Shown one piece after another: positions 30,069 to 39,525 of a DNA stretch of 64,000 bases. Position numbers and translations under genes: made by a program. This stretch comes from an uncultured Candidatus Saccharibacteria bacterium (lineage in GTDB: Bacteria > Patescibacteriota > Minisyncoccia > Minisyncoccales > UBA10102). Every line of letters begins with the position of its first letter. Position 1 is the stretch's first letter. The stretch is taken from positions 176-64,175 of the forward strand of contig CAYHVI010000002.1 in the NCBI GenBank assembly GCA_964359655.1, read 5' to 3'. Below the pieces are notes generated by a model, which was given only the letters and a program-made list of their open reading frames with translations, made no database searches and had not been told where the DNA came from.

Positions 30069-30134
30069 TTGAATTCTGGATTTCAGTCAATCCCTGATTA
30101 CTATAAATATCGACCTTTCTGCAAAACTTTTTTT

Positions 30135-30163
30135 ATTGTATCTTTTGGTATACTCTCTGTCAA
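30135..30163 (-). promoter_or_regulatory. Sigma70-type promoter of khpA
   Basis: TTGACA, 17 nt, TACAAT on the minus strand. Confidence 0.6.
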
Positions 30164-30176
30164 GACAAAAATGAAA

Positions 30177-30212
30177 AAGGGCTGTTTCTTGTTGCAACAA
30201 GAAACAGCCCTT
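30177..30212 (-). terminator. Rho-independent terminator closing the island's last cassette
   Basis: AAGGGCTGTTTCTTGTTGCAACAAGAAACAGCCCTT followed by TTTTCAT on the minus strand. Confidence 0.75.
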
Positions 30213-30222
30213 TTGTACGGTC

Positions 30223-30366
30223 TCACGTTTTGAGACTTTTTTTAGTCGGTAGAAGAACTTTGACTCTTTTCAACGAGCCGTTACACTTTGTGCACTTGCG
30301 GTTTTGTTCCTCGTATTTTGCGCCACAACTCATGCACATCAAGACCTCTTGCATGGAATCCTCCAT
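30223..30366 (-). CDS. Zinc-ribbon mini-protein (47 aa), below the ORF-track cutoff
   Basis: Own translation: MEDSMQEVLMCMSCGAKYEEQNRKCTKCNGSLKRVKVLLPTKKSLKT. The SD GGAGAGG, 13 nt upstream, is buried in hairpin 30377-30402. Confidence 0.5.
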   Translation of the reverse strand: MEDSMQEVLMCMSCGAKYEEQNRKCTKCNGSLKRVKVLLPTKKSLKT

Positions 30367-30426
30367 CTACAACTTGAGACCTCTCCTTTGCGGGAGAGGT
30401 CTTTGTGAAATATTCTATAAAGTGTT

Positions 30427-30546
30427 TTATATCTTATAAAATCCTTTACATAAACTTCTCCCAATACCAAACATCGCCATTTTCTGCGCAAAGGCGACGG
30501 GGGTATCGTGGGACATCAATCTTATTTGTGAATATCCAATTTCCAT
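30427..30546 (-). CDS. Near-leaderless mini-ORF (39 aa)
   Basis: ATG lies 8 nt after the -10 box. Translation: MEIGYSQIRLMSHDTPVAFAQKMAMFGIGRSLCKGFYKI. Confidence 0.35.
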   Translation of the reverse strand: MEIGYSQIRLMSHDTPVAFAQKMAMFGIGRSLCKGFYKI

Positions 30547-30554
30547 GTTTCCCA

Positions 30555-30583
30555 AGTATATTCTTTTGCGAATAATTTGTCAA
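30555..30583 (-). promoter_or_regulatory. Sigma70-type promoter
   Basis: TTGACA, 17 nt, TATACT on the minus strand. Confidence 0.6.
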
Positions 30584-30648
30584 TCCCCTATTTATCCACA
30601 CAAAAACATAAGGAGCCACATAGTTGCGGCTCCTAAAAAGTGCGGGAG

Positions 30649-30724
30649 TGGCCCGGGATGGACTCGAACCATCCAGTCTCCAAGCGGATCGCGCCTGACG
30701 CTTATACCTCCAAGCTAACGGGCC
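30649..30724 (-). ncRNA. tRNA-like element (76 nt) with canonical T arm and acceptor but a non-canonical anticodon arm
   Basis: GGCCCGT/CCGGGCC acceptor with a 7:66 mismatch, D arm GCTT-GGAGGTAT-AAGC, T arm GATGG-TTCGAGT-CCATC. The best anticodon loop is GCGAUCC, which lacks U33 and a purine at 37. Hairpin terminator 30612-30633 follows. Confidence 0.45.
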
Positions 30725-30733
30725 ACTTGGACT

Positions 30734-30901
30734 CTAGGAAGGATTATTTTTCGGCTTCGGGCTGCCAGGCATCGCGTCTGGCTTCTTTGGGTCAAGTTGC
30801 TCCTTTTGTTCCTCGACGAAATCGAAGCCTTCTAGGGCATCGGGATCTACATCTTCTCTTTCGAGAGTGCCGTGTTCAAGATCACTTTTACTAATAGGCA
30901 T
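30734..30901 (-). CDS. Acidic mini-protein (55 aa), unknown function
   Basis: SD GGAGGAGA precedes the ATG. Translation: MPISKSDLEHGTLEREDVDPDALEGFDFVEEQKEQLDPKKPDAMPGSPKPKNNPS. Confidence 0.5.
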   Translation of the reverse strand: MPISKSDLEHGTLEREDVDPDALEGFDFVEEQKEQLDPKKPDAMPGSPKPKNNPS

Positions 30902-31012
30902 GTCTCCTCCTTCTTGGGTGCTAAATTTGCGACTACATATCGCAGGAAAATATCGAATGAATCCATATCTTGCTGCGATATTCAATCTTCCTTAAAAGAG
31001 CTATAAACGAAA

Positions 31013-36915: not shown

Positions 36916-37191
36916 TCCTGCCGCGCTGGGTCAGGGCCTTGCTATTTCTCCCACACACGGTGTGTGGGTCTCATAGCAGCGAGCTGAACACTAATTCTCT
37001 TTGGATCTCTGTAATGAATCAATAAACTTGAAGATCAGATTAACTAATGTTCACTTCGTTGCTATGAATGTTTTGAAAAGAACTGTTTTAAACTCCCTGC
37101 CCCGTACTAATTTTGTTTTGCAAAATTTAGTACTGGGGTCTCGAATCTCGTAAATCGAGAACTTTTTTGTTCCAGACTTAAGATATTCTTG

Positions 37192-37234
37192 GAGCCTGGG
37201 GAAGGTAGCGCTTTCGCACTCCTTCCCCAGGCTC
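37192..37234 (-). terminator. 14-bp hairpin after the 110-aa ORF (no clear U-tract)
   Basis: GAGCCTGGGGAAGG...CCTTCCCCAGGCTC. Confidence 0.5.
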
Positions 37235-37239
37235 GCTTG

Positions 37240-37572
37240 TTAGGCGGAGGGTTCCGTCGTTGTTGCCTTTGCAGCGACTTCCTCCGTGGTGATGGTGATC
37301 TGCTCGCGGGCGTTCTCAAGCGCTCCCATGAGGGAAAGCAACCTGGCCGTCTCCACAGAAGCCATCTTGACCTCCACGATTTTAGGAGCGATTATATTTA
37401 TCTCTGCATCTTTCAATTGCGCGACGCAGAGAGTGATCGCTGTCAAATCTCGCGGGCTGAAGTTTTGCCTTTGTGTGGTGATCTGACCGGCACCGATATC
37501 CTTAAAACTCACCTTATATAGCCTTACTGTTGTACTGTTCTCTTCTTTTTGAAGGTCAACGATGAACTGCAT
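37240..37572 (-). CDS. Hypothetical 110-aa protein
   Basis: SD AGGAGG, 5 nt, ATG. Translation starts MQFIVDLQKEENSTTVRLYKVSFKDIGAGQITTQRQNF... Preferred over the antisense plus-strand ORF 37189..37521. Confidence 0.55.
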   Translation of the reverse strand: MQFIVDLQKEENSTTVRLYKVSFKDIGAGQITTQRQNFSPRDLTAITLCVAQLKDAEINIIAPKIVEVKMASVETARLLSLMGALENAREQITITTEEVAAKATTTEPSA

Positions 37573-37599
37573 TTTTTCCTCCTGGCGTCTTTGCGCCTA

Positions 37600-37800
37600 T
37601 AAAATGCCGGGCTAGGATTTCTCCTTCCGGACAATCAAACCTCCGCATAAGTCGAAGGACTGATTGCCCGAAAGGAATACTTGTCCTGAGCGTAGTCGAA
37701 GGATTTCAATGTACTTTCCAATATTTCAGCCCTGAACGAAGTCGAAGGGCTCAAGTATTGGGGCGAGTCGGTGATCCTAAGGATCTTCGCAACTCGTCCA
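37600..37800 (-). repeat. Structured-leader family, copy C (5' leader of the 110-aa ORF)
   Basis: Same three-hairpin layout as copy B. The distal part of hairpin 1 has a different sequence but still pairs (GAUCCUaAGGAUC versus AAUCAUguAUGAUU). Confidence 0.55.
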
Positions 37801-38127
37801 CGCTGGGGTTACTACATAGTAACCTCCTTTCTTCTCCTCGATTTCCTATAAGGAACCTAGAATACCAACATTATCCTGGATTCCTTCTTCAAGCTCACAA
37901 TGCGTGTTGCATTTTTTGCGTTCTTGAAGAAAGAATCCTTCACCCCTTATTTCATCTGCTTTATTATCTGTACCATGGTATTCTTAATGAAGTAGAATTG
38001 ATAACGTACTTTTCTCGATGCAATCTCTGAAATTCATGTCTTACTTTGAACTTCAGTGATTGGAGATCTCGGGTTGGCGTTGGCGCTCTGTTTTTAGATT
38101 TTGTTTTTGCCTTCCCGAGATCTCCTG

Positions 38128-38301
38128 CTACCGGCCTAGCGATGCCTTGAGCTTCGCTAAGCTCGGATCGCCGATGTCTATAATGTGCCCACACTGGGCA
38201 CATTCCCGGAACTCGCCGTAAATATCTCTGTTTTTTACCATGTCCCCTCGGCACCGGGGACATGCCTTGAAATTAACTTGGATGGAAGCCAGATGGAACA
38301 T
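38128..38301 (-). CDS. Zinc-ribbon mini-protein (57 aa), below the ORF-track cutoff
   Basis: SD GAGGAGG, 4 nt, ATG. Translation: MFHLASIQVNFKACPRCRGDMVKNRDIYGEFRECAQCGHIIDIGDPSLAKLKASLGR. Confidence 0.55.
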   Translation of the reverse strand: MFHLASIQVNFKACPRCRGDMVKNRDIYGEFRECAQCGHIIDIGDPSLAKLKASLGR

Positions 38302-38500
38302 GAGTCCTCCTCATTTTTTATTGAGCGCCCCGATGACCCTTACCCGTCATCGGGATGCTCACGGAGGTTTCTAGGTTCTTCTGTCCCTACGCCTTAGTCT
38401 ACATTTCATCTCTTGATCTTTTGTCTTTTAATCTAGACTTAGGTTTAGGGATGAGGGGTACGCGCAGATTTCTCCGTCGCGTCCCCTCGCCCTTTGGTCT

Positions 38501-38815
38501 TTACTTCCGTAAGACCTGTTCCTTCAATTCTGGATTGACGCTAACGTGCAGCCGCACGTCAGGTGGTCCAGAGTCCCCGAGTCTGGGGACAGAGGTGGAC
38601 TTTGTCACGTGTCCGAGAACCTGCCCCAACCTTGAAACCGTACAGAGAACTTCACCTGTTATGATTGCGTTCTGTACTATCATCGGCTCCACTGTTGACC
38701 ATGGAACCCTGAAGTCGGTTTCGGTTGTTGGGTGAATGGTTACACCCACTTTTCCCGCATCTTCGCGGAATGCTGCTTGAATCCCCTCAGGGAGACTATC
38801 GAAATAGAACGACAT
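38501..38815 (-). CDS. Hypothetical 104-aa protein
   Basis: SD AAGGAGGAAACG precedes the ATG. Translation starts MSFYFDSLPEGIQAAFREDAGKVGVTIHPTTETDF... Promoter TTGACA, 17 nt, TATACT at 39028-39056, with a ~205-nt leader. Confidence 0.55.
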   Translation of the reverse strand: MSFYFDSLPEGIQAAFREDAGKVGVTIHPTTETDFRVPWSTVEPMIVQNAIITGEVLCTVSRLGQVLGHVTKSTSVPRLGDSGPPDVRLHVSVNPELKEQVLRK

Positions 38816-39165
38816 CGTTTCCTCCTTCTTAAATATGCTTTCCCTTCTAATGACTTTGCTTGTCGTCAGAAGGCAGAGCACACTCATCTATAAGCACAAC
38901 AGCCCTCTTTGGGAGAGCTGTGTGGTTTAACGTACTTCTGTCTTAAATATAGATAGGCAAGTTTAGCTTTATTTTGGCCTCTCCCTGACCAATAAGCTTG
39001 TATATTCAATTTTCACTTTACTCTCATAGTATAGCATACTTCTAAAAAAATGTCAAGGGTTTTGTGGAGGGAACAAAAAACGCCCTATTTTGGCGGTTCT
39101 TATGTGGTTTGGTGTAGATTGATGGGGAGAGGAGAAGCGGTTCGCTCACTTCTCCTCTCCCTCTG

Positions 39166-39357
39166 TTAGACGACGCGGGTGATCTGCCCGGTTACCAGAT
39201 CTAAGGCGTATTGAGGAACCTTGTATCCCGGAGGAAGCTTGCCGCCAAAGCGGTAATTGGTCATGGCTCGAAGGACTCTGTCGGCCTGCGACGACAAGCC
39301 GAATCCTAGAAATCCACCTCTCGCTCGGTATCTCTTAGATGCAATGTCTCCGCGCAT
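39166..39357 (-). CDS. Hypothetical 63-aa protein
   Basis: SD GTGGAGA precedes the ATG. Translation: MRGDIASKRYRARGGFLGFGLSSQADRVLRAMTNYRFGGKLPPGYKVPQYALDLVTGQITRVV. Promoter TTGACA, 17 nt, TATCAT at 39456-39484. Terminator hairpin at 39125-39161. Confidence 0.5.
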   Translation of the reverse strand: MRGDIASKRYRARGGFLGFGLSSQADRVLRAMTNYRFGGKLPPGYKVPQYALDLVTGQITRVV

Positions 39358-39494
39358 TTTTTTCTCCACTTAAAATTTTGGATTACATTGGGGGGTATTT
39401 AAAAACTCTCAAGGTGCTGCTCCTTTCTGCTTCCTGTGAAAGCTTAAATTTTTAAATGATAGCATCGCATAAAAGTCGTGTCAATAGCTGTAGA

Positions 39495-39522
39495 GAAAGA
39501 CCCCTTTCATGGAGGGTCTTTC
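39495..39522 (-). terminator. Hairpin terminator immediately after rpsP (right border of the island)
   Basis: GAAAGACCCTCCATGAAAGGGGTCTTTC on the minus strand. Confidence 0.65.
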
Positions 39523-39525
39523 TTA

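What the first reader, a model, noticed from the sequence alone, without database searches (positions are those of the whole stretch)
30069..39525. A 9.4-kb accessory island of ~17 single-gene cassettes splits rpsP from khpA-trmD and is enriched in amino-acid-sensing parts
rpsP (39526..39894) and the KH protein khpA (29760..30068) are normally adjacent in the rpsP-khpA-rimM-trmD-rplS cluster. Here they are 9.4 kb apart. rpsP has its own terminator, khpA has its own TTGACA-17-TACAAT promoter, and rimM and rplS are absent locally. The insert has no integrase or transposase. It consists of short ORFs (39-339 aa), mostly on the minus strand, each with a near-consensus promoter and hairpin terminator. 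GC content is mosaic: the DAHP synthase and the 124-aa membrane protein are visibly GC-rich with GGAGG SDs, while the spacers are AT-rich. The recognisable parts share one theme, amino-acid sensing. They are codon-biased leader ORFs (F/Y, Cys, Ile, Leu/Val), a stand-alone Lrp/AsnC RAM domain, a TrpR-like repressor, and a DAHP synthase with a regulatory domain. This could be an undescribed nutrient-status sensing locus in an otherwise minimal genome.
Basis: partly seen in the sequence, partly recalled or inferred. Interest (0 to 1): 0.85.

Follow-up and report, generated by a model that had tools for sequence, protein, structure and literature searches.

The report
Variable gene island with amino-acid switches
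A 9.4-kb species-specific island sits in an insertion hotspot between two normally adjacent ribosome-related genes of a tiny groundwater bacterium, and about half of it consists of classical amino-acid-responsive gene switches, one of which drives an enzyme gene taken from an unrelated bacterium.

Summary
rpsP and khpA are adjacent in six relatives, but 9.46 kb apart here. Three replicate assemblies reproduce both borders. The two closest relatives carry unrelated inserts at the same spot, so this is a hotspot with rapid turnover. It is not one mobile element: there is no integrase, no phage or defence genes, and no flanking repeats.

The "amino-acid sensing" parts are real but are of known kinds:
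- **Phe/Tyr attenuator.** A textbook leader-peptide attenuator (MGLKQFFGYFYFFT...) controls a Thermotoga-type DAHP synthase. The synthase coding sequence alone is 88.7% nucleotide-identical to a gene of a 62%-GC bacterium.
- **TrpR-family repressor.** It has two GTACTAGTAC operators. This arrangement recurs in dozens of related (CPR) contigs, usually with a WW/WWW leader peptide ahead of trp or phe genes. Here the second operator precedes a small conserved Trp-rich protein.
- **Other leaders.** An Ile leader also behaves as an attenuator in silico. The Cys leader is equivocal, and the Leu/Val leader shows no switch. All three precede proteins with no detectable relatives (orphans).
- **RAM domain.** A stand-alone RAM-domain protein is present.

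The rpsP-proximal half holds HicAB, orphan genes and repeated 5' modules, with no sensing theme. I found no evidence that the parts form one integrated sensing system. Verdict: a mosaic flexible island carrying rewired classical regulators; moderately interesting.

The parts
39526..39894 (-). rpsP (ribosomal protein S16), upstream border gene
   Evidence: Pfam Ribosomal_S16, 72.6 bits. 78% identical to the L013 homologue.
39494..39523 (-). rpsP terminator hairpin
   Evidence: Folds at -18.6 kcal/mol, z = -4.67.
39166..39484 (-). Unit o63: promoter TTGACA-17-TATCAT (39484-39456) plus a 63-aa orphan ORF (39357-39166)
   Evidence: gene called in L007/L008. No family hit.
38501..39056 (-). Unit o104: promoter TTGACA-17-TATACT (39056-39028), a 5' UTR of about 190 nt, and a 104-aa orphan ORF (38815-38501)
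   Evidence: NCBI MEK7542487.1, hypothetical protein. No family hit.
38128..38301 (-). 57-aa zinc-ribbon-like ORF
   Evidence: Only weak sub-threshold Zn-ribbon hits.
37240..37800 (-). Orphan ORF o110 (37572-37240) behind a repeated structured 5' module (37573-37800)
   Evidence: The module aligns with the one upstream of mem124 (D1 91% over 77 nt, plus D4 and D17).
36970..37068 (-). Long-hairpin, MITE-like element with 23-25-nt inverted arms (CATAGCRRCGARSTGAACAYTAR)
   Evidence: Folds at z = -7.0. The same arms occur twice in the island of relative L014.
36335..36905 (-). mem124, a GC-rich (about 60%) 124-aa membrane protein (36709-36335), behind the second copy of the repeated 5' module (36710-36905)
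   Evidence: No family hit.
35513..36080 (+). hicB-hicA type II toxin-antitoxin pair (HicB 35513-35851, HicA 35859-36080)
   Evidence: HicA_toxin E = 1.9e-17. HicB-like phrog_497.
34859..35395 (+). Promoter TTGACA-17-TATAAT followed by a leaderless o59 (Cys-pair protein) overlapping o109 (predicted coiled coil)
   Evidence: No significant family hit.
34583..34764 (-). Unit A regulatory region. Promoter at 34764-34737. Leaderless leader ORF MGLKQFFGYFYFFTDAVGKILVSKRA at 34727-34647. Antiterminator arms at 34683-34660 and 34629-34606. Terminator at 34623-34596 followed by a U-tract.
   Evidence: (I5). Fold z = -6.6. The structure switches with ribosome position. 0 of 300 shuffles disrupt the terminator.
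33467..34486 (-). DAHP synthase (type I-beta, with the N-terminal ferredoxin-like regulatory domain), horizontally acquired
   Evidence: Pfam. NF006421 scores 487 bits against a cutoff of 335. Full-length PDB matches 1rzm/3pg9. 88.7% nucleotide identity over 1008 nt to L051, whose contig is 61.7% GC.
33022..33399 (-). Unit B: promoter 33399-33372, Cys-rich leaderless ORF MSYIISSCCGCACLQGPSGCEIFVATFA (33364-33278), terminator 33245-33229, and orphan o53 (33183-33022)
   Evidence: The antiterminator is not significant (39 of 300 shuffles).
32609..32959 (-). TrpR-family repressor gene (32920-32609). Its promoter (32959-32930) is overlapped by operator O1, ATCGTACTAGTACGAT (32934-32919). The start is leaderless.
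   Evidence: Pfam Trp_repressor, 76 bits. The HTH segment VATITRGS aligns to E. coli TrpR. The same promoter-operator-ATG layout occurs in other CPR genomes.
32140..32581 (-). Operator O2, ATTGTACTAGTACGAT as read on the + strand (32581-32566), followed by o34 (32567-32463) and then o107 (32463-32140), a conserved Trp-rich small protein
   Evidence: GTACTAGTAC occurs only twice in the window against 0.24 expected. The o107 family has 5 invariant Trp.
31596..32085 (-). Unit C: -35 box at 32085-32080, leader MSLRNLIIIIITILMPQKLGVIFLHK (32036-31956), terminator 31930-31907, and orphan o73 (31817-31596)
   Evidence: 0 of 300 shuffles disrupt the terminator. o73 has no homologue among 5.8 billion proteins. 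An alternative Tyr-rich frame exists.
31261..31546 (-). Promoter TTGACA-17-TATAAT plus a stand-alone RAM (Lrp/AsnC ligand-binding) domain protein of 75 aa
   Evidence: AsnC_trans_reg, 41 bits. Full-length weak matches to stand-alone RAM proteins 2zbc, 2djw and 2e1a.
30611..31195 (-). Unit D: promoter 31195-31168, Leu/Val-rich ORF (31160-31059), palindromic hairpin 31035-31012, orphan o55 (30901-30734), tRNA-like element (30724-30648), and terminator 30634-30611
   Evidence: No structural switch. The tRNA-like element falls below the Rfam tRNA threshold.
30175..30583 (-). Unit E: promoter 30583-30555, 39-aa ORF, hairpin, 47-aa zinc-ribbon-like ORF (30366-30223), and terminator 30214-30175
   Evidence: terminator z = -6.3.
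29760..30163 (-). khpA with its own promoter TTGACA-17-TACAAT (30163-30135), downstream border gene
   Evidence: Nucleotide homology to L013/L014 stops at 30068-30082.

Best explanation
**What it is.** The 9.4 kb is a lineage-specific flexible genomic island. It lies in an insertion/replacement hotspot between rpsP and khpA of a Paceibacteria (Wildermuthbacteria-like, CPR) genome. It is a mosaic assembled piecemeal from short, independently transcribed units. It is not one mobile element.

**khpA-proximal half (30.6-34.8 kb).** This half carries amino-acid-responsive regulators of classical kinds that are native to this lineage.
1. **Phe/Tyr attenuator.** A ribosome-mediated attenuator is translated from a leaderless mRNA. 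When Phe-tRNA or Tyr-tRNA is scarce, the ribosome stalls in FFGYFYFF. The 24-nt antiterminator then forms, and transcription reads through into a Tyr/Phe-type DAHP synthase. When supply is good, the ribosome reaches the stop codon, masks the antiterminator, and the terminator forms. The DAHP synthase coding sequence itself is a recent xenologue from a high-GC bacterium. It was dropped into this pre-existing regulated slot.
2. **TrpR-family repressor.** It shuts off its own leaderless promoter (operator O1). Through O2 it also shuts off the o34-o107 operon, which encodes a conserved Trp-rich small protein.
3. **Ile attenuator.** An Ile-codon attenuator sits ahead of an orphan 73-aa protein.
4. 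**RAM domain.** A stand-alone RAM domain is present.

The Cys and Leu/Val "leaders" may be small peptides and not sensors.

**rpsP-proximal half.** This half holds hicBA, orphan genes, a MITE-like hairpin and duplicated 5' modules.

**Shown versus inferred.**
- Shown: synteny break, turnover between relatives, HGT of the coding sequence, the RNA structures, operator conservation.
- Inferred: the actual response to amino acids, turnover by homologous recombination in the flanking core genes after DNA uptake, and the functions of the orphan genes.
For: **Hotspot.**
- Six relatives have rpsP and khpA adjacent.
- The closest relative, L013 (TrmD 79% identical), has a 4.6-kb insert with unrelated ORFs.
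- In L014 (75%), no rpsP lies in the 2.6 kb between khpA and the contig end.
- tblastx finds nothing shared among the islands.

**Real assembly.**

**HGT of the DAHP synthase.**
- 88.7% nucleotide identity over 1008 ungapped nt to a gene on a 61.7%-GC, metabolically rich contig.
- Homology begins 1 nt before the ATG and ends about 13 nt before the stop.
- GC3 is 75-100% across the core codons, while the leader region is about 42% GC.

**Attenuator A.**
- Seven of eight consecutive codons are Phe or Tyr.
- The fold has z = -6.6.
- The minimum-energy fold changes from antiterminator to terminator with ribosome position.
- 0 of 300 shuffles mimic this.
- A similar F leader (MIQSRKHFFGFFAFT...) with an attenuator lies directly upstream of the trpR-like gene in L058.

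**Leaderless translation is normal here.** rplU, dnaE and trpR all start 6-9 nt after the -10 box.

**TrpR.**
- The HTH is conserved.
- There are exactly two GTACTAGTAC copies in the window, against 0.24 expected.
- The same -11 position and a second operator after the stop recur widely: a downstream operator is present in 36 of 62 testable loci.
- 25 of the 35 non-window downstream operators are followed by WW/WWW leaders.
- The next genes downstream include trpE, trpDCF, trpB and pheA.

**o107.** A homologue sits after a trpR-WWW leader in L085.

**Unbiased scan.** The only codon-biased short ORFs followed by a terminator in the 64 kb are the F/Y and Ile units.
Against: - No expression data exist. 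Every regulatory response is inferred from sequence.
- Except for the DAHP synthase, the attenuator targets are orphan genes, so pathway logic is missing for units B-D.
- Unit D never loses its hairpin in silico. Unit B's switch is matched by 13% of shuffles.
- Unit C has a weak promoter (TATAGA, 18-nt spacer) and an alternative Tyr-rich reading frame.
- The rest of the shikimate pathway could not be checked, so the DAHP synthase may be a non-functional passenger.
- The mechanism that makes this site a hotspot is not shown.
- The three replicates come from one well, so they confirm the assembly but are not independent populations.
Confidence: 0.7

Rival explanations
1. The island is one coherent, previously undescribed nutrient-status sensing system. 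Several amino-acid sensors (F/Y, Cys, Ile and Leu/Val leaders, the RAM domain, TrpR, the DAHP synthase regulatory domain) act together to report host-derived amino-acid supply and to control orphan effector proteins.
For: - Four codon-biased leaderless short ORFs, a RAM domain and TrpR are clustered within 4.2 kb.
- No such units occur elsewhere in the window or in 23 relatives' loci.
- Three promoter/leader starts share a 42-nt module (D2).
- Possible Ile leaders ahead of orphan genes occur in two other CPR contigs.
Against: - Each device is wired in cis to its own gene. No shared operator or regulator links them: GTACTAGTAC occurs only at trpR and o34.
- TrpR and F/W-leader modules occur elsewhere in CPR in unrelated contexts and ahead of ordinary trp/phe genes.
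- Units B and D fail or barely pass the switch test.
- The targets o73, o55 and o53 have no homologues, so no conserved effector set exists.
Confidence: 0.15
2. The island is the decayed remnant of an integrative element (prophage, ICE or genomic island) that entered at a tRNA gene. The tRNA-like sequence would be the old attachment site, hicBA its addiction module, and the integrase would have been lost.
For: - ARAGORN calls a tRNA-Ile-like cloverleaf at 30648-30724.
- Relative L032 has a genuine tRNA-Ile just upstream of khpA.
- hicBA is present.
- Composition is foreign in parts.
Against: - There is no integrase or recombinase, not even a fragment, and no ORF above 130 aa apart from the DAHP synthase.
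- PHROGs gave only toxin-antitoxin hits.
- No direct repeats flank the island.
- The tRNA-like element lies 580 bp inside the border, has a non-canonical anticodon loop, scores below the Rfam threshold, and does not align with the relatives' tRNA-Ile.
- The DAHP synthase arrived as a bare coding sequence, which indicates piecemeal acquisition.
Confidence: 0.1
3. The island, or at least the high-GC DAHP synthase, is a chimeric metagenome assembly.
For: Coverage is low (about 5x). The 65%-GC gene has sharp GC edges inside 43%-GC DNA.
Against: - Contigs from three separately assembled replicates cross both island borders: L007/L008/L009 on one side and L001-L005 on the other.
- They also cross both edges of the DAHP synthase (L002, L006, L011) at 99.8-100% identity.
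- The nearest foreign gene is only 88.7% identical, so reads from it could not have been merged.
Confidence: 0.02

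Closest known systems
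Corynebacterium glutamicum aroR-aroF attenuator (a leader peptide with Phe-Tyr-Phe upstream of the DAHP synthase operon; Neshat et al. 2014, as summarised in PMC11802643), and E. coli pheL-pheA
   Same: A short leader ORF rich in Phe/Tyr codons sits ahead of the first enzyme of aromatic amino-acid synthesis. Mutually exclusive antiterminator and terminator hairpins are present. Ribosome stalling is read as a shortage of charged tRNA.
   Different: - The leader mRNA here is leaderless, with the ATG 9 nt after the -10 box.
- The host is a CPR bacterium.
- The regulated coding sequence is a recent xenologue from a high-GC bacterium.
- Nothing has been tested experimentally.
E. coli trp operon dual control (TrpR plus the trpL attenuator) and the Chlamydia trachomatis trpRBA operon (PMC7755916)
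   Same: - A TrpR-family repressor with a conserved recognition helix.
- A palindromic operator with an ACTAGT core, as in the E. coli operator CGAACTAGTTAACTAGTACG (sequence printed in PMC11748629).
- Autoregulation.
- In CPR relatives, a tandem-Trp leader peptide and terminator lie between trpR and trp genes. This resembles the reduced-genome Chlamydia layout trpR - intergenic region - trpBA.
   Different: - The operator is a single compact 10-bp palindrome, GTACTAGTAC.
- It lies between the -10 box and a leaderless ATG.
- In this window the second operator drives a Trp-rich orphan-family protein (o107) with no Trp leader and no trp gene.
- The protein scores below the TIGR01321 equivalog cut-off.
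Flexible genomic islands or replacement hotspots between conserved core genes, as described in many free-living bacteria (own knowledge; general review of genomic islands PMC2704930)
   Same: The position between core genes is fixed, the content differs in each close relative, the composition is mosaic, and orphan and toxin-antitoxin genes are present.
   Different: - There is no tRNA border, integrase or flanking repeats.
- The units are extremely short, each with a near-consensus promoter and terminator.
- Short repeated 5' modules and a MITE-like hairpin are shared between the islands of different species.
Thermotoga maritima DAH7P synthase (PDB 1rzm, 3pg9) with its N-terminal ferredoxin-like/ACT-like regulatory domain
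   Same: Full-length alignment (E about 1e-103) that includes the regulatory domain. By my own knowledge the T. maritima enzyme is inhibited by Tyr and Phe, which matches the F/Y leader.
   Different: The ligand specificity of this protein is untested. The genomic context lacks the other aro genes within the 64 kb.

Membership tests
Ribosome-mediated (leader-peptide) transcription attenuator | A promoter-proximal short ORF with a run of codons for the sensed amino acid | tested here: met
   - Unit A: FFGYFYFF, 7 of 8 codons.
- Unit C: LIIIIITI.
- Unit B: 4 Cys in 8.
- Unit D: VLVLMLIL.
- All start 7-13 nt after a sigma-70-like -10 box.
- An unbiased scan finds only units A and C in the 64 kb.
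Ribosome-mediated (leader-peptide) transcription attenuator | An intrinsic terminator (GC-rich hairpin plus U-tract) between the leader ORF and the regulated gene | tested here: met
   Met for units A, B and C. Unit D has the hairpin but only an interrupted U-tract (GUUUCGUUU).
Ribosome-mediated (leader-peptide) transcription attenuator | An alternative antiterminator that pairs with the 5' arm of the terminator and is masked by a ribosome at the stop codon | tested here: inconclusive
   - Units A and C: clearly met, 0 of 300 shuffles disrupt the terminator.
- Unit B: 39 of 300 shuffles do.
- Unit D: not met, the terminator is kept in every state.
Ribosome-mediated (leader-peptide) transcription attenuator | The regulated gene belongs to the metabolism of the sensed amino acid | tested here: inconclusive
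   Met for unit A (DAHP synthase). Units B-D precede orphan genes with no detectable homologues.
Ribosome-mediated (leader-peptide) transcription attenuator | Read-through responds to the supply of charged tRNA | not testable with these tools
   This needs Term-seq or RNA-seq, or reporter assays.
TrpR (Trp repressor) family | Sequence membership | tested here: met
   Pfam PF01371 scores 76 bits against a cutoff of 27. The NCBIfam equivalog TIGR01321 scores 54.5 bits, below its cutoff of 67.25. The protein scores better there than against YerC/YecD (32.9 bits). It is therefore a family member, not a proven equivalog.
TrpR (Trp repressor) family | Conserved recognition helix and a palindromic operator with a CTAG core overlapping the promoter | tested here: met
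   - SQRKIAKDLGVSVATITRGSREL aligns to E. coli [23 protein letters not shown].
- GTACTAGTAC overlaps the -10 box and the transcription start.
- It is conserved at position -11 in at least 10 other CPR loci, and downstream of the gene in 36 of 62 loci.
TrpR (Trp repressor) family | DNA binding dependent on L-tryptophan as corepressor | not testable with these tools
   Only indirect support: linkage to WW/WWW leaders and trp genes in relatives.
Type I-beta DAHP synthase with N-terminal regulatory domain | Catalytic barrel plus ferredoxin-like domain, scoring as DAHPS and not KDO8PS | tested here: met
   - NF006421 scores 487 bits (cutoff 335).
- KDO8PS models score 133-137 bits, below their cutoffs.
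- Full-length matches to PDB 1rzm/3pg9.
- Relatives at 77-78% identity (L049, L050) lie next to trpA and chorismate mutase.
Type I-beta DAHP synthase with N-terminal regulatory domain | The remainder of the shikimate pathway is present in the same genome | not testable with these tools
   Only 64 kb is available and no aro gene was noticed in it. Related CPR contigs do carry trpE, trpDCF, trpB and pheA.
Integrase-mediated genomic island, prophage or ICE | An integrase/recombinase, flanking direct repeats, and a tRNA at the border | tested here: not met
   No such ORF or domain. No border repeats. The tRNA-like element is internal and non-canonical.
Integron cassette array | An IntI integrase and attC recombination sites at cassette 3' ends | tested here: not met
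   No integrase. The repeats found are 5' promoter/UTR modules and terminator palindromes, not attC-like sites at each cassette end.
HicAB type II toxin-antitoxin | Adjacent HicB-like antitoxin and HicA toxin genes | tested here: met
   HicA_toxin E = 1.9e-17. HicB-like phrog_497 E = 2e-6. The genes are 7 nt apart.
Stand-alone RAM domain protein (SraA/DM1 type) | An Lrp/AsnC ligand-binding domain with no HTH | tested here: met
   75 aa, AsnC_trans_reg positions 1-71 of 73, 41 bits against a cutoff of 25. Best PDB matches are stand-alone 75-92-aa RAM proteins. The ligand is unknown.

The most novel reading that the evidence does not exclude
In an amino-acid-dependent CPR episymbiont, classical charged-tRNA and Trp sensors have been uncoupled from biosynthesis. 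These sensors are leaderless F/Y, Ile and possibly Cys leader-peptide attenuators, plus a TrpR repressor. They now gate small lineage-specific proteins, including the conserved Trp-rich WGxHCxW...FWI family. The cell would thereby read host-supplied amino acids and switch its behaviour. The regulated slots can also capture foreign coding sequences precisely, as happened with the DAHP synthase.
Probability: 0.2. Interest if true: 0.75.

Novelty: new variant of a known kind. Interest (0 to 1): 0.5.

Why it matters
- **Regulation in CPR bacteria.** CPR/Patescibacteria are thought to depend on hosts for amino acids, and almost nothing is known about how they regulate genes. This locus and about 70 related contigs show that they use textbook devices. 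These are ribosome-mediated attenuation, run from leaderless mRNAs, and a TrpR repressor with a sharply defined operator.
- **Testable predictions.** This gives concrete sites, leader peptides and targets for expression studies, including existing groundwater metatranscriptomes.
- **How a foreign gene becomes useful.** A bare coding sequence from a high-GC bacterium sits behind a native Phe/Tyr attenuator. This is a clean example of a horizontally acquired gene coming under appropriate control.
- **A marker for strain variation.** The rpsP|khpA site is a reproducible turnover hotspot and could be used to follow strain-level variation in these organisms.

Tried and rejected
- **Rfam.** Gathering and E-value modes over the island gave only sub-threshold chance-level hits. 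The tRNA-like element scored 23.7 bits against tRNA-Sec.
- **Protein family searches on the orphan ORFs.** PHROGs, PADLOC and NCBIfam gave nothing beyond HicAB. The two PADLOC hits had E > 1e-3.
- **Homologue search for o73.** Only the protein itself was found among 5.8 billion proteins.
- **AlphaFold2 on o107 without an alignment.** Mean pLDDT was 52.8, too low for a fold search, so none was run.
- **Border repeats or att sites.** None found. The 27-nt repeat at 28719/39909 is a motif upstream of three ribosomal-protein genes (rplJ, rpmG, rpsP), not an island boundary.
- **Are the four leader units paralogous?** Only the roughly 45-nt promoter/start module is shared by units A, B and D.
- **Leader in the donor-like genomes.** There is no F/Y leader upstream of the DAHP synthase in L049 or L051.
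- **Shared genes among the islands of the window, L013, L014 and L023.** None by tblastx.
- **tRNA-Ile remnant idea.** The element does not align with the relatives' tRNA-Ile.
- **Integron and prophage readings.** Rejected; see the membership tests.

Full report

- The window comes from a groundwater Paceibacteria (CPR) population. Exact protein look-ups hit Hainich well H51 0.1-µm assemblies and an NCBI "Patescibacteria group bacterium" MAG. The closest TrmD relatives are Candidatus Wildermuthbacteria/Paceibacterota MAGs.
- rpsP (39526-39894), khpA (29760-30068) and trmD (29008-29697) are confirmed by Pfam. They lie on the minus strand with 9,457 bp between rpsP and khpA.
- In six relatives (L015-L020, TrmD 57-66% identical) the order RnhB-L32-NusB-Rnc-RpsP-KhpA-TrmD-tRNA(Tyr,Thr,Trp) is contiguous. 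The RpsP-KhpA gaps are about 70-385 bp. None has rimM there, so the missing rimM/rplS is a lineage trait.
- The rpsP terminator and the khpA promoter are present.
- Promoter-like and terminator-like sites occur at twice the shuffled expectation. Nine of the 13 promoters in the window that match the consensus at 11 or more of 12 positions fall in the island.
- GC is mosaic.
- Contigs from three separately assembled replicates tile the island at 99.8% identity or better. They cross both borders and both GC edges of the DAHP synthase. A chimera is effectively excluded.

**2. A hotspot, not one element**

- The two closest relatives also have DNA inserted at exactly this junction, but the DNA is different. 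L013 (TrmD 79%) has 4.6 kb of unrelated ORFs. L014 (75%) has at least 2.6 kb before its contig ends.
- Nucleotide homology between the window and L013/L014 stops at the khpA start codon and inside rpsP.
- tblastx finds nothing shared among the four islands compared.
- There is no integrase or transposase, and no ORF above 130 aa other than the DAHP synthase. There is no phage or defence signal and there are no border repeats.
- The ARAGORN "tRNA-Ile" at 30648-30724 lies 580 bp inside the island. Its anticodon loop is GCGAUCC, with C where U33 and purine-37 should be. It falls below the Rfam tRNA threshold and does not align with the relatives' tRNA-Ile.
- What the islands do share are short non-coding elements:
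  - a roughly 100-nt long-hairpin element with 23-25-nt arms (window 36970-37068, two copies in L014);
  - a 17-19-nt motif (D17);
  - within the window, a roughly 190-nt structured 5' module duplicated ahead of o110 and mem124;
  - a 42-nt promoter/start module shared by three leader units.
- I infer piecemeal gain and loss, probably by recombination in the flanking core genes or at these repeats. That mechanism is not shown.

**3. The DAHP synthase is a coding-sequence-precise xenologue**

- It is a full-length Thermotoga-type enzyme with the N-terminal ferredoxin-like regulatory domain.
- The 90%-identity cluster contains a JGI protein on a 22.9-kb contig (L051). That contig is 61.7% GC and is rich in ordinary metabolic genes.
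- The two genes are 88.7% identical over 1008 ungapped nucleotides. Homology begins one base before the ATG and ends about 13 nt before the stop, and the flanks are unrelated.
- More distant homologues (78% amino-acid identity, named Chloroflexi) sit after trpA and chorismate mutase.
- GC3 is 75-100% in the core of the gene. The upstream leader region is about 42% GC. Only the ORF was imported, and it now sits behind a regulatory region with host-like composition.

**4. The Phe/Tyr attenuator**

- Nine nucleotides after the -10 box of a TTGACA-16-TATACT promoter starts MGLKQFFGYFYFFTDAVGKILVSKRA (34727-34647).
- Leaderless starts are normal in this genome. rplU, dnaE and trpR have the same geometry.
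- The transcript folds far better than shuffles (z = -6.6).
- With a ribosome placed on the first or middle F/Y codon, the minimum-energy fold of the free RNA is a 24-nt antiterminator (34683-34660 paired with 34629-34606). This structure consumes the 5' arm of the terminator.
- With the ribosome at the stop codon, or with no ribosome, the terminator 34623-34596 plus its U-tract forms.
- None of 300 dinucleotide shuffles of the upstream segment disrupts the terminator.
- The closest described case is aroR-aroF of C. glutamicum (PMC11802643).
- A related leader, MIQSRKHFFGFFAFTQQVAVG..., with the same GGGGTTGACA promoter type and a similar terminator, lies directly upstream of the trpR-like gene in another CPR contig (L058). 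There it controls a 91-aa protein. The attenuator is therefore native to the lineage, and the DAHP synthase coding sequence occupies a pre-existing slot.

**5. The TrpR module**

- The 103-aa protein is a clear Trp_repressor family member. Its recognition helix is nearly identical to that of E. coli TrpR. It scores below the NCBIfam equivalog cut-off.
- GTACTAGTAC occurs exactly twice in the 64 kb, against 0.24 expected. One copy lies over the -10/transcription-start region, 1 nt before the trpR ATG. The other lies 30 nt after the trpR stop, 1 nt before the ATG of o34, which overlaps o107.
- The E. coli operator shares the ACTAGT core (sequence in PMC11748629).
- The family is common in CPR.
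- In 69 non-identical loci from metagenomes and genomes, the exact palindrome sits at -11 in the closer relatives. It lies 17-90 nt downstream of the stop in nearly all of the 36 (of 62 testable) loci that have a downstream copy.
- In 25 of 35 cases the downstream operator is followed by a 20-35-aa ORF with WW or WWW and then a terminator. Examples are MATERDKNGNTMIWWWVLQA and MKNNFKINK..KSWWGAK....
- The next genes include trpE, a trpD-C-F fusion, trpB-like enzymes, pheA, Asp/Glu racemase and class II aminoacyl-tRNA synthetases.
- FFFFF leaders precede pheA in L070 and L085.
- This amounts to E. coli-style dual control, and resembles Chlamydia trpRBA (PMC7755916). I found no paper linking TrpR or attenuation with CPR.
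- In the window the target is o107. This is a member of a small family: five other cluster representatives among 1.84 billion. The family has five invariant Trp residues and the motifs WGxHCxW and FWI. Its L085 homologue lies between a trpR-WWW attenuator and pheL-pheA. Its function is unknown, and AlphaFold2 without an alignment was uninformative.

**6. The other "leaders"**

- **Unit C** (MSLRNLIIIIITILMPQKLGVIFLHK, followed by a terminator and then the orphan o73). It has a specific antiterminator: AGCUGGGAG pairs with the 5' arm of the terminator. It passes the shuffle test at 0 of 300. However, its promoter is weaker, an alternative Tyr-rich frame exists, and o73 has no homologue anywhere.
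- **Unit B** (Cys-rich). It switches in silico, but so do 13% of shuffles.
- **Unit D** (Leu/Val). It never loses its hairpin and lacks a proper U-tract. These two may instead encode small Cys-rich or hydrophobic peptides.
- A promoter-independent scan of the whole window finds only units A and C. Relatives' loci show W and F leaders and two possible Ile leaders ahead of orphan genes.
- The 75-aa RAM-domain protein is genuine, but nothing ties it mechanistically to its neighbours.

**7. The rpsP-proximal half**

The stretch 34.9-39.5 kb holds hicBA and a leaderless o59-o109 pair. It also holds the GC-rich membrane protein, three orphan genes and a zinc-ribbon-like ORF. None has a family assignment.

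**8. Verdict**

- The best reading is a mosaic flexible island in a lineage-specific hotspot. It carries classical amino-acid-responsive regulators that are typical of this CPR lineage and are rewired to unusual targets. It is not a new kind of integrated sensing system.
- The most novel elements are:
  - attenuation from leaderless mRNAs in CPR;
  - a foreign coding sequence captured behind a native attenuator;
  - a Trp-rich small-protein family under TrpR control.
- All regulatory behaviour is inferred from sequence and comparative data.

Noticed in passing
L053, L055-L138 (trpR-like loci); window 32566-32934: TrpR regulon found across dozens of CPR contigs. An exact GTACTAGTAC operator lies between the -10 box and a leaderless trpR ATG. 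A second operator after the gene is followed, in 25 of 35 cases, by a WW/WWW leader peptide plus terminator. Downstream genes include trpE, trpDCF, trpB-like, pheA, racemase and aaRS genes. I found no publication linking TrpR or attenuation with CPR.
   Followed up: yes
window 32140-32463; L085 3563-3883; P0245-P0248: A small conserved protein family (about 107 aa) with five invariant Trp residues (WGxHCxW..PPxW..SRExxFWI..LW). It sits downstream of TrpR operators or Trp attenuators. Only 5 other cluster representatives were found among 1.84 billion proteins.
   Followed up: partly
window 36970-37068; L014 9-100 and 797-895: A roughly 100-nt long-hairpin, MITE-like element with conserved 23-25-nt inverted arms and a variable loop. 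It is shared between the rpsP|khpA islands of two different species and is absent from the rest of the window.
   Followed up: partly
window 28859-28876, 36840-36857, 37685-37702, 37731-37748; L014 3025, L065 1687, L070 1084, L071 3846, L085 4144, L058 ~6380: An 18-mer, CCTGARCGAAGTCGAAGG, forming a small hairpin. It is dispersed in several Paceibacteria genomes. It often lies just upstream of promoters or in 5' regions, for example ahead of pheA in L070 and L085. Its function is unknown.
   Followed up: partly
window 25969-25984, 28722-28737, 39912-39927: The motif TACGAATTACGAATYT lies immediately upstream of three ribosomal-protein genes on the minus strand (rplJ, rpmG, rpsP). At rpsP it is part of a 37-nt palindrome. 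It may be a shared ribosomal-protein promoter or operator element. Six matches were found against 0.09 expected.
   Followed up: partly
window 30648-30724 (-): A tRNA-like cloverleaf (ARAGORN: Ile, GAU) with a non-canonical anticodon loop, GCGAUCC. It is below the Rfam tRNA threshold. It would be co-transcribed with orphan o55 behind the Leu/Val-rich ORF and is followed by its own terminator.
   Followed up: partly
window 45500-46800: A second cluster of perfect-consensus promoters (45563, 46113, 46124, 46359). They drive small leaderless orphan or membrane ORFs between dnaE and the next core gene. This looks like a smaller version of the same cassette architecture.
   Followed up: no
window 5837, 42087, 32959, 34859: Leaderless or near-leaderless starts (ATG 6-9 nt after the -10 box) occur at core genes (rplU, dnaE) as well as island genes. 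This suggests leaderless translation is routine in this organism.
   Followed up: partly
window 35451-35512 and 37139-37199: A 60-nt direct repeat (82-87% identical) brackets a 1.7-kb segment that contains hicBA, mem124 and the hairpin element. It may be the footprint of a duplication or insertion event inside the island.
   Followed up: no
L090 3025-3115; L065 2536-2622: Ile-rich short ORFs (..QIIIIEII.., ..IITNIIII..) followed by terminators, ahead of orphan ORFs in other CPR contigs. They resemble unit C of the window.
   Followed up: partly
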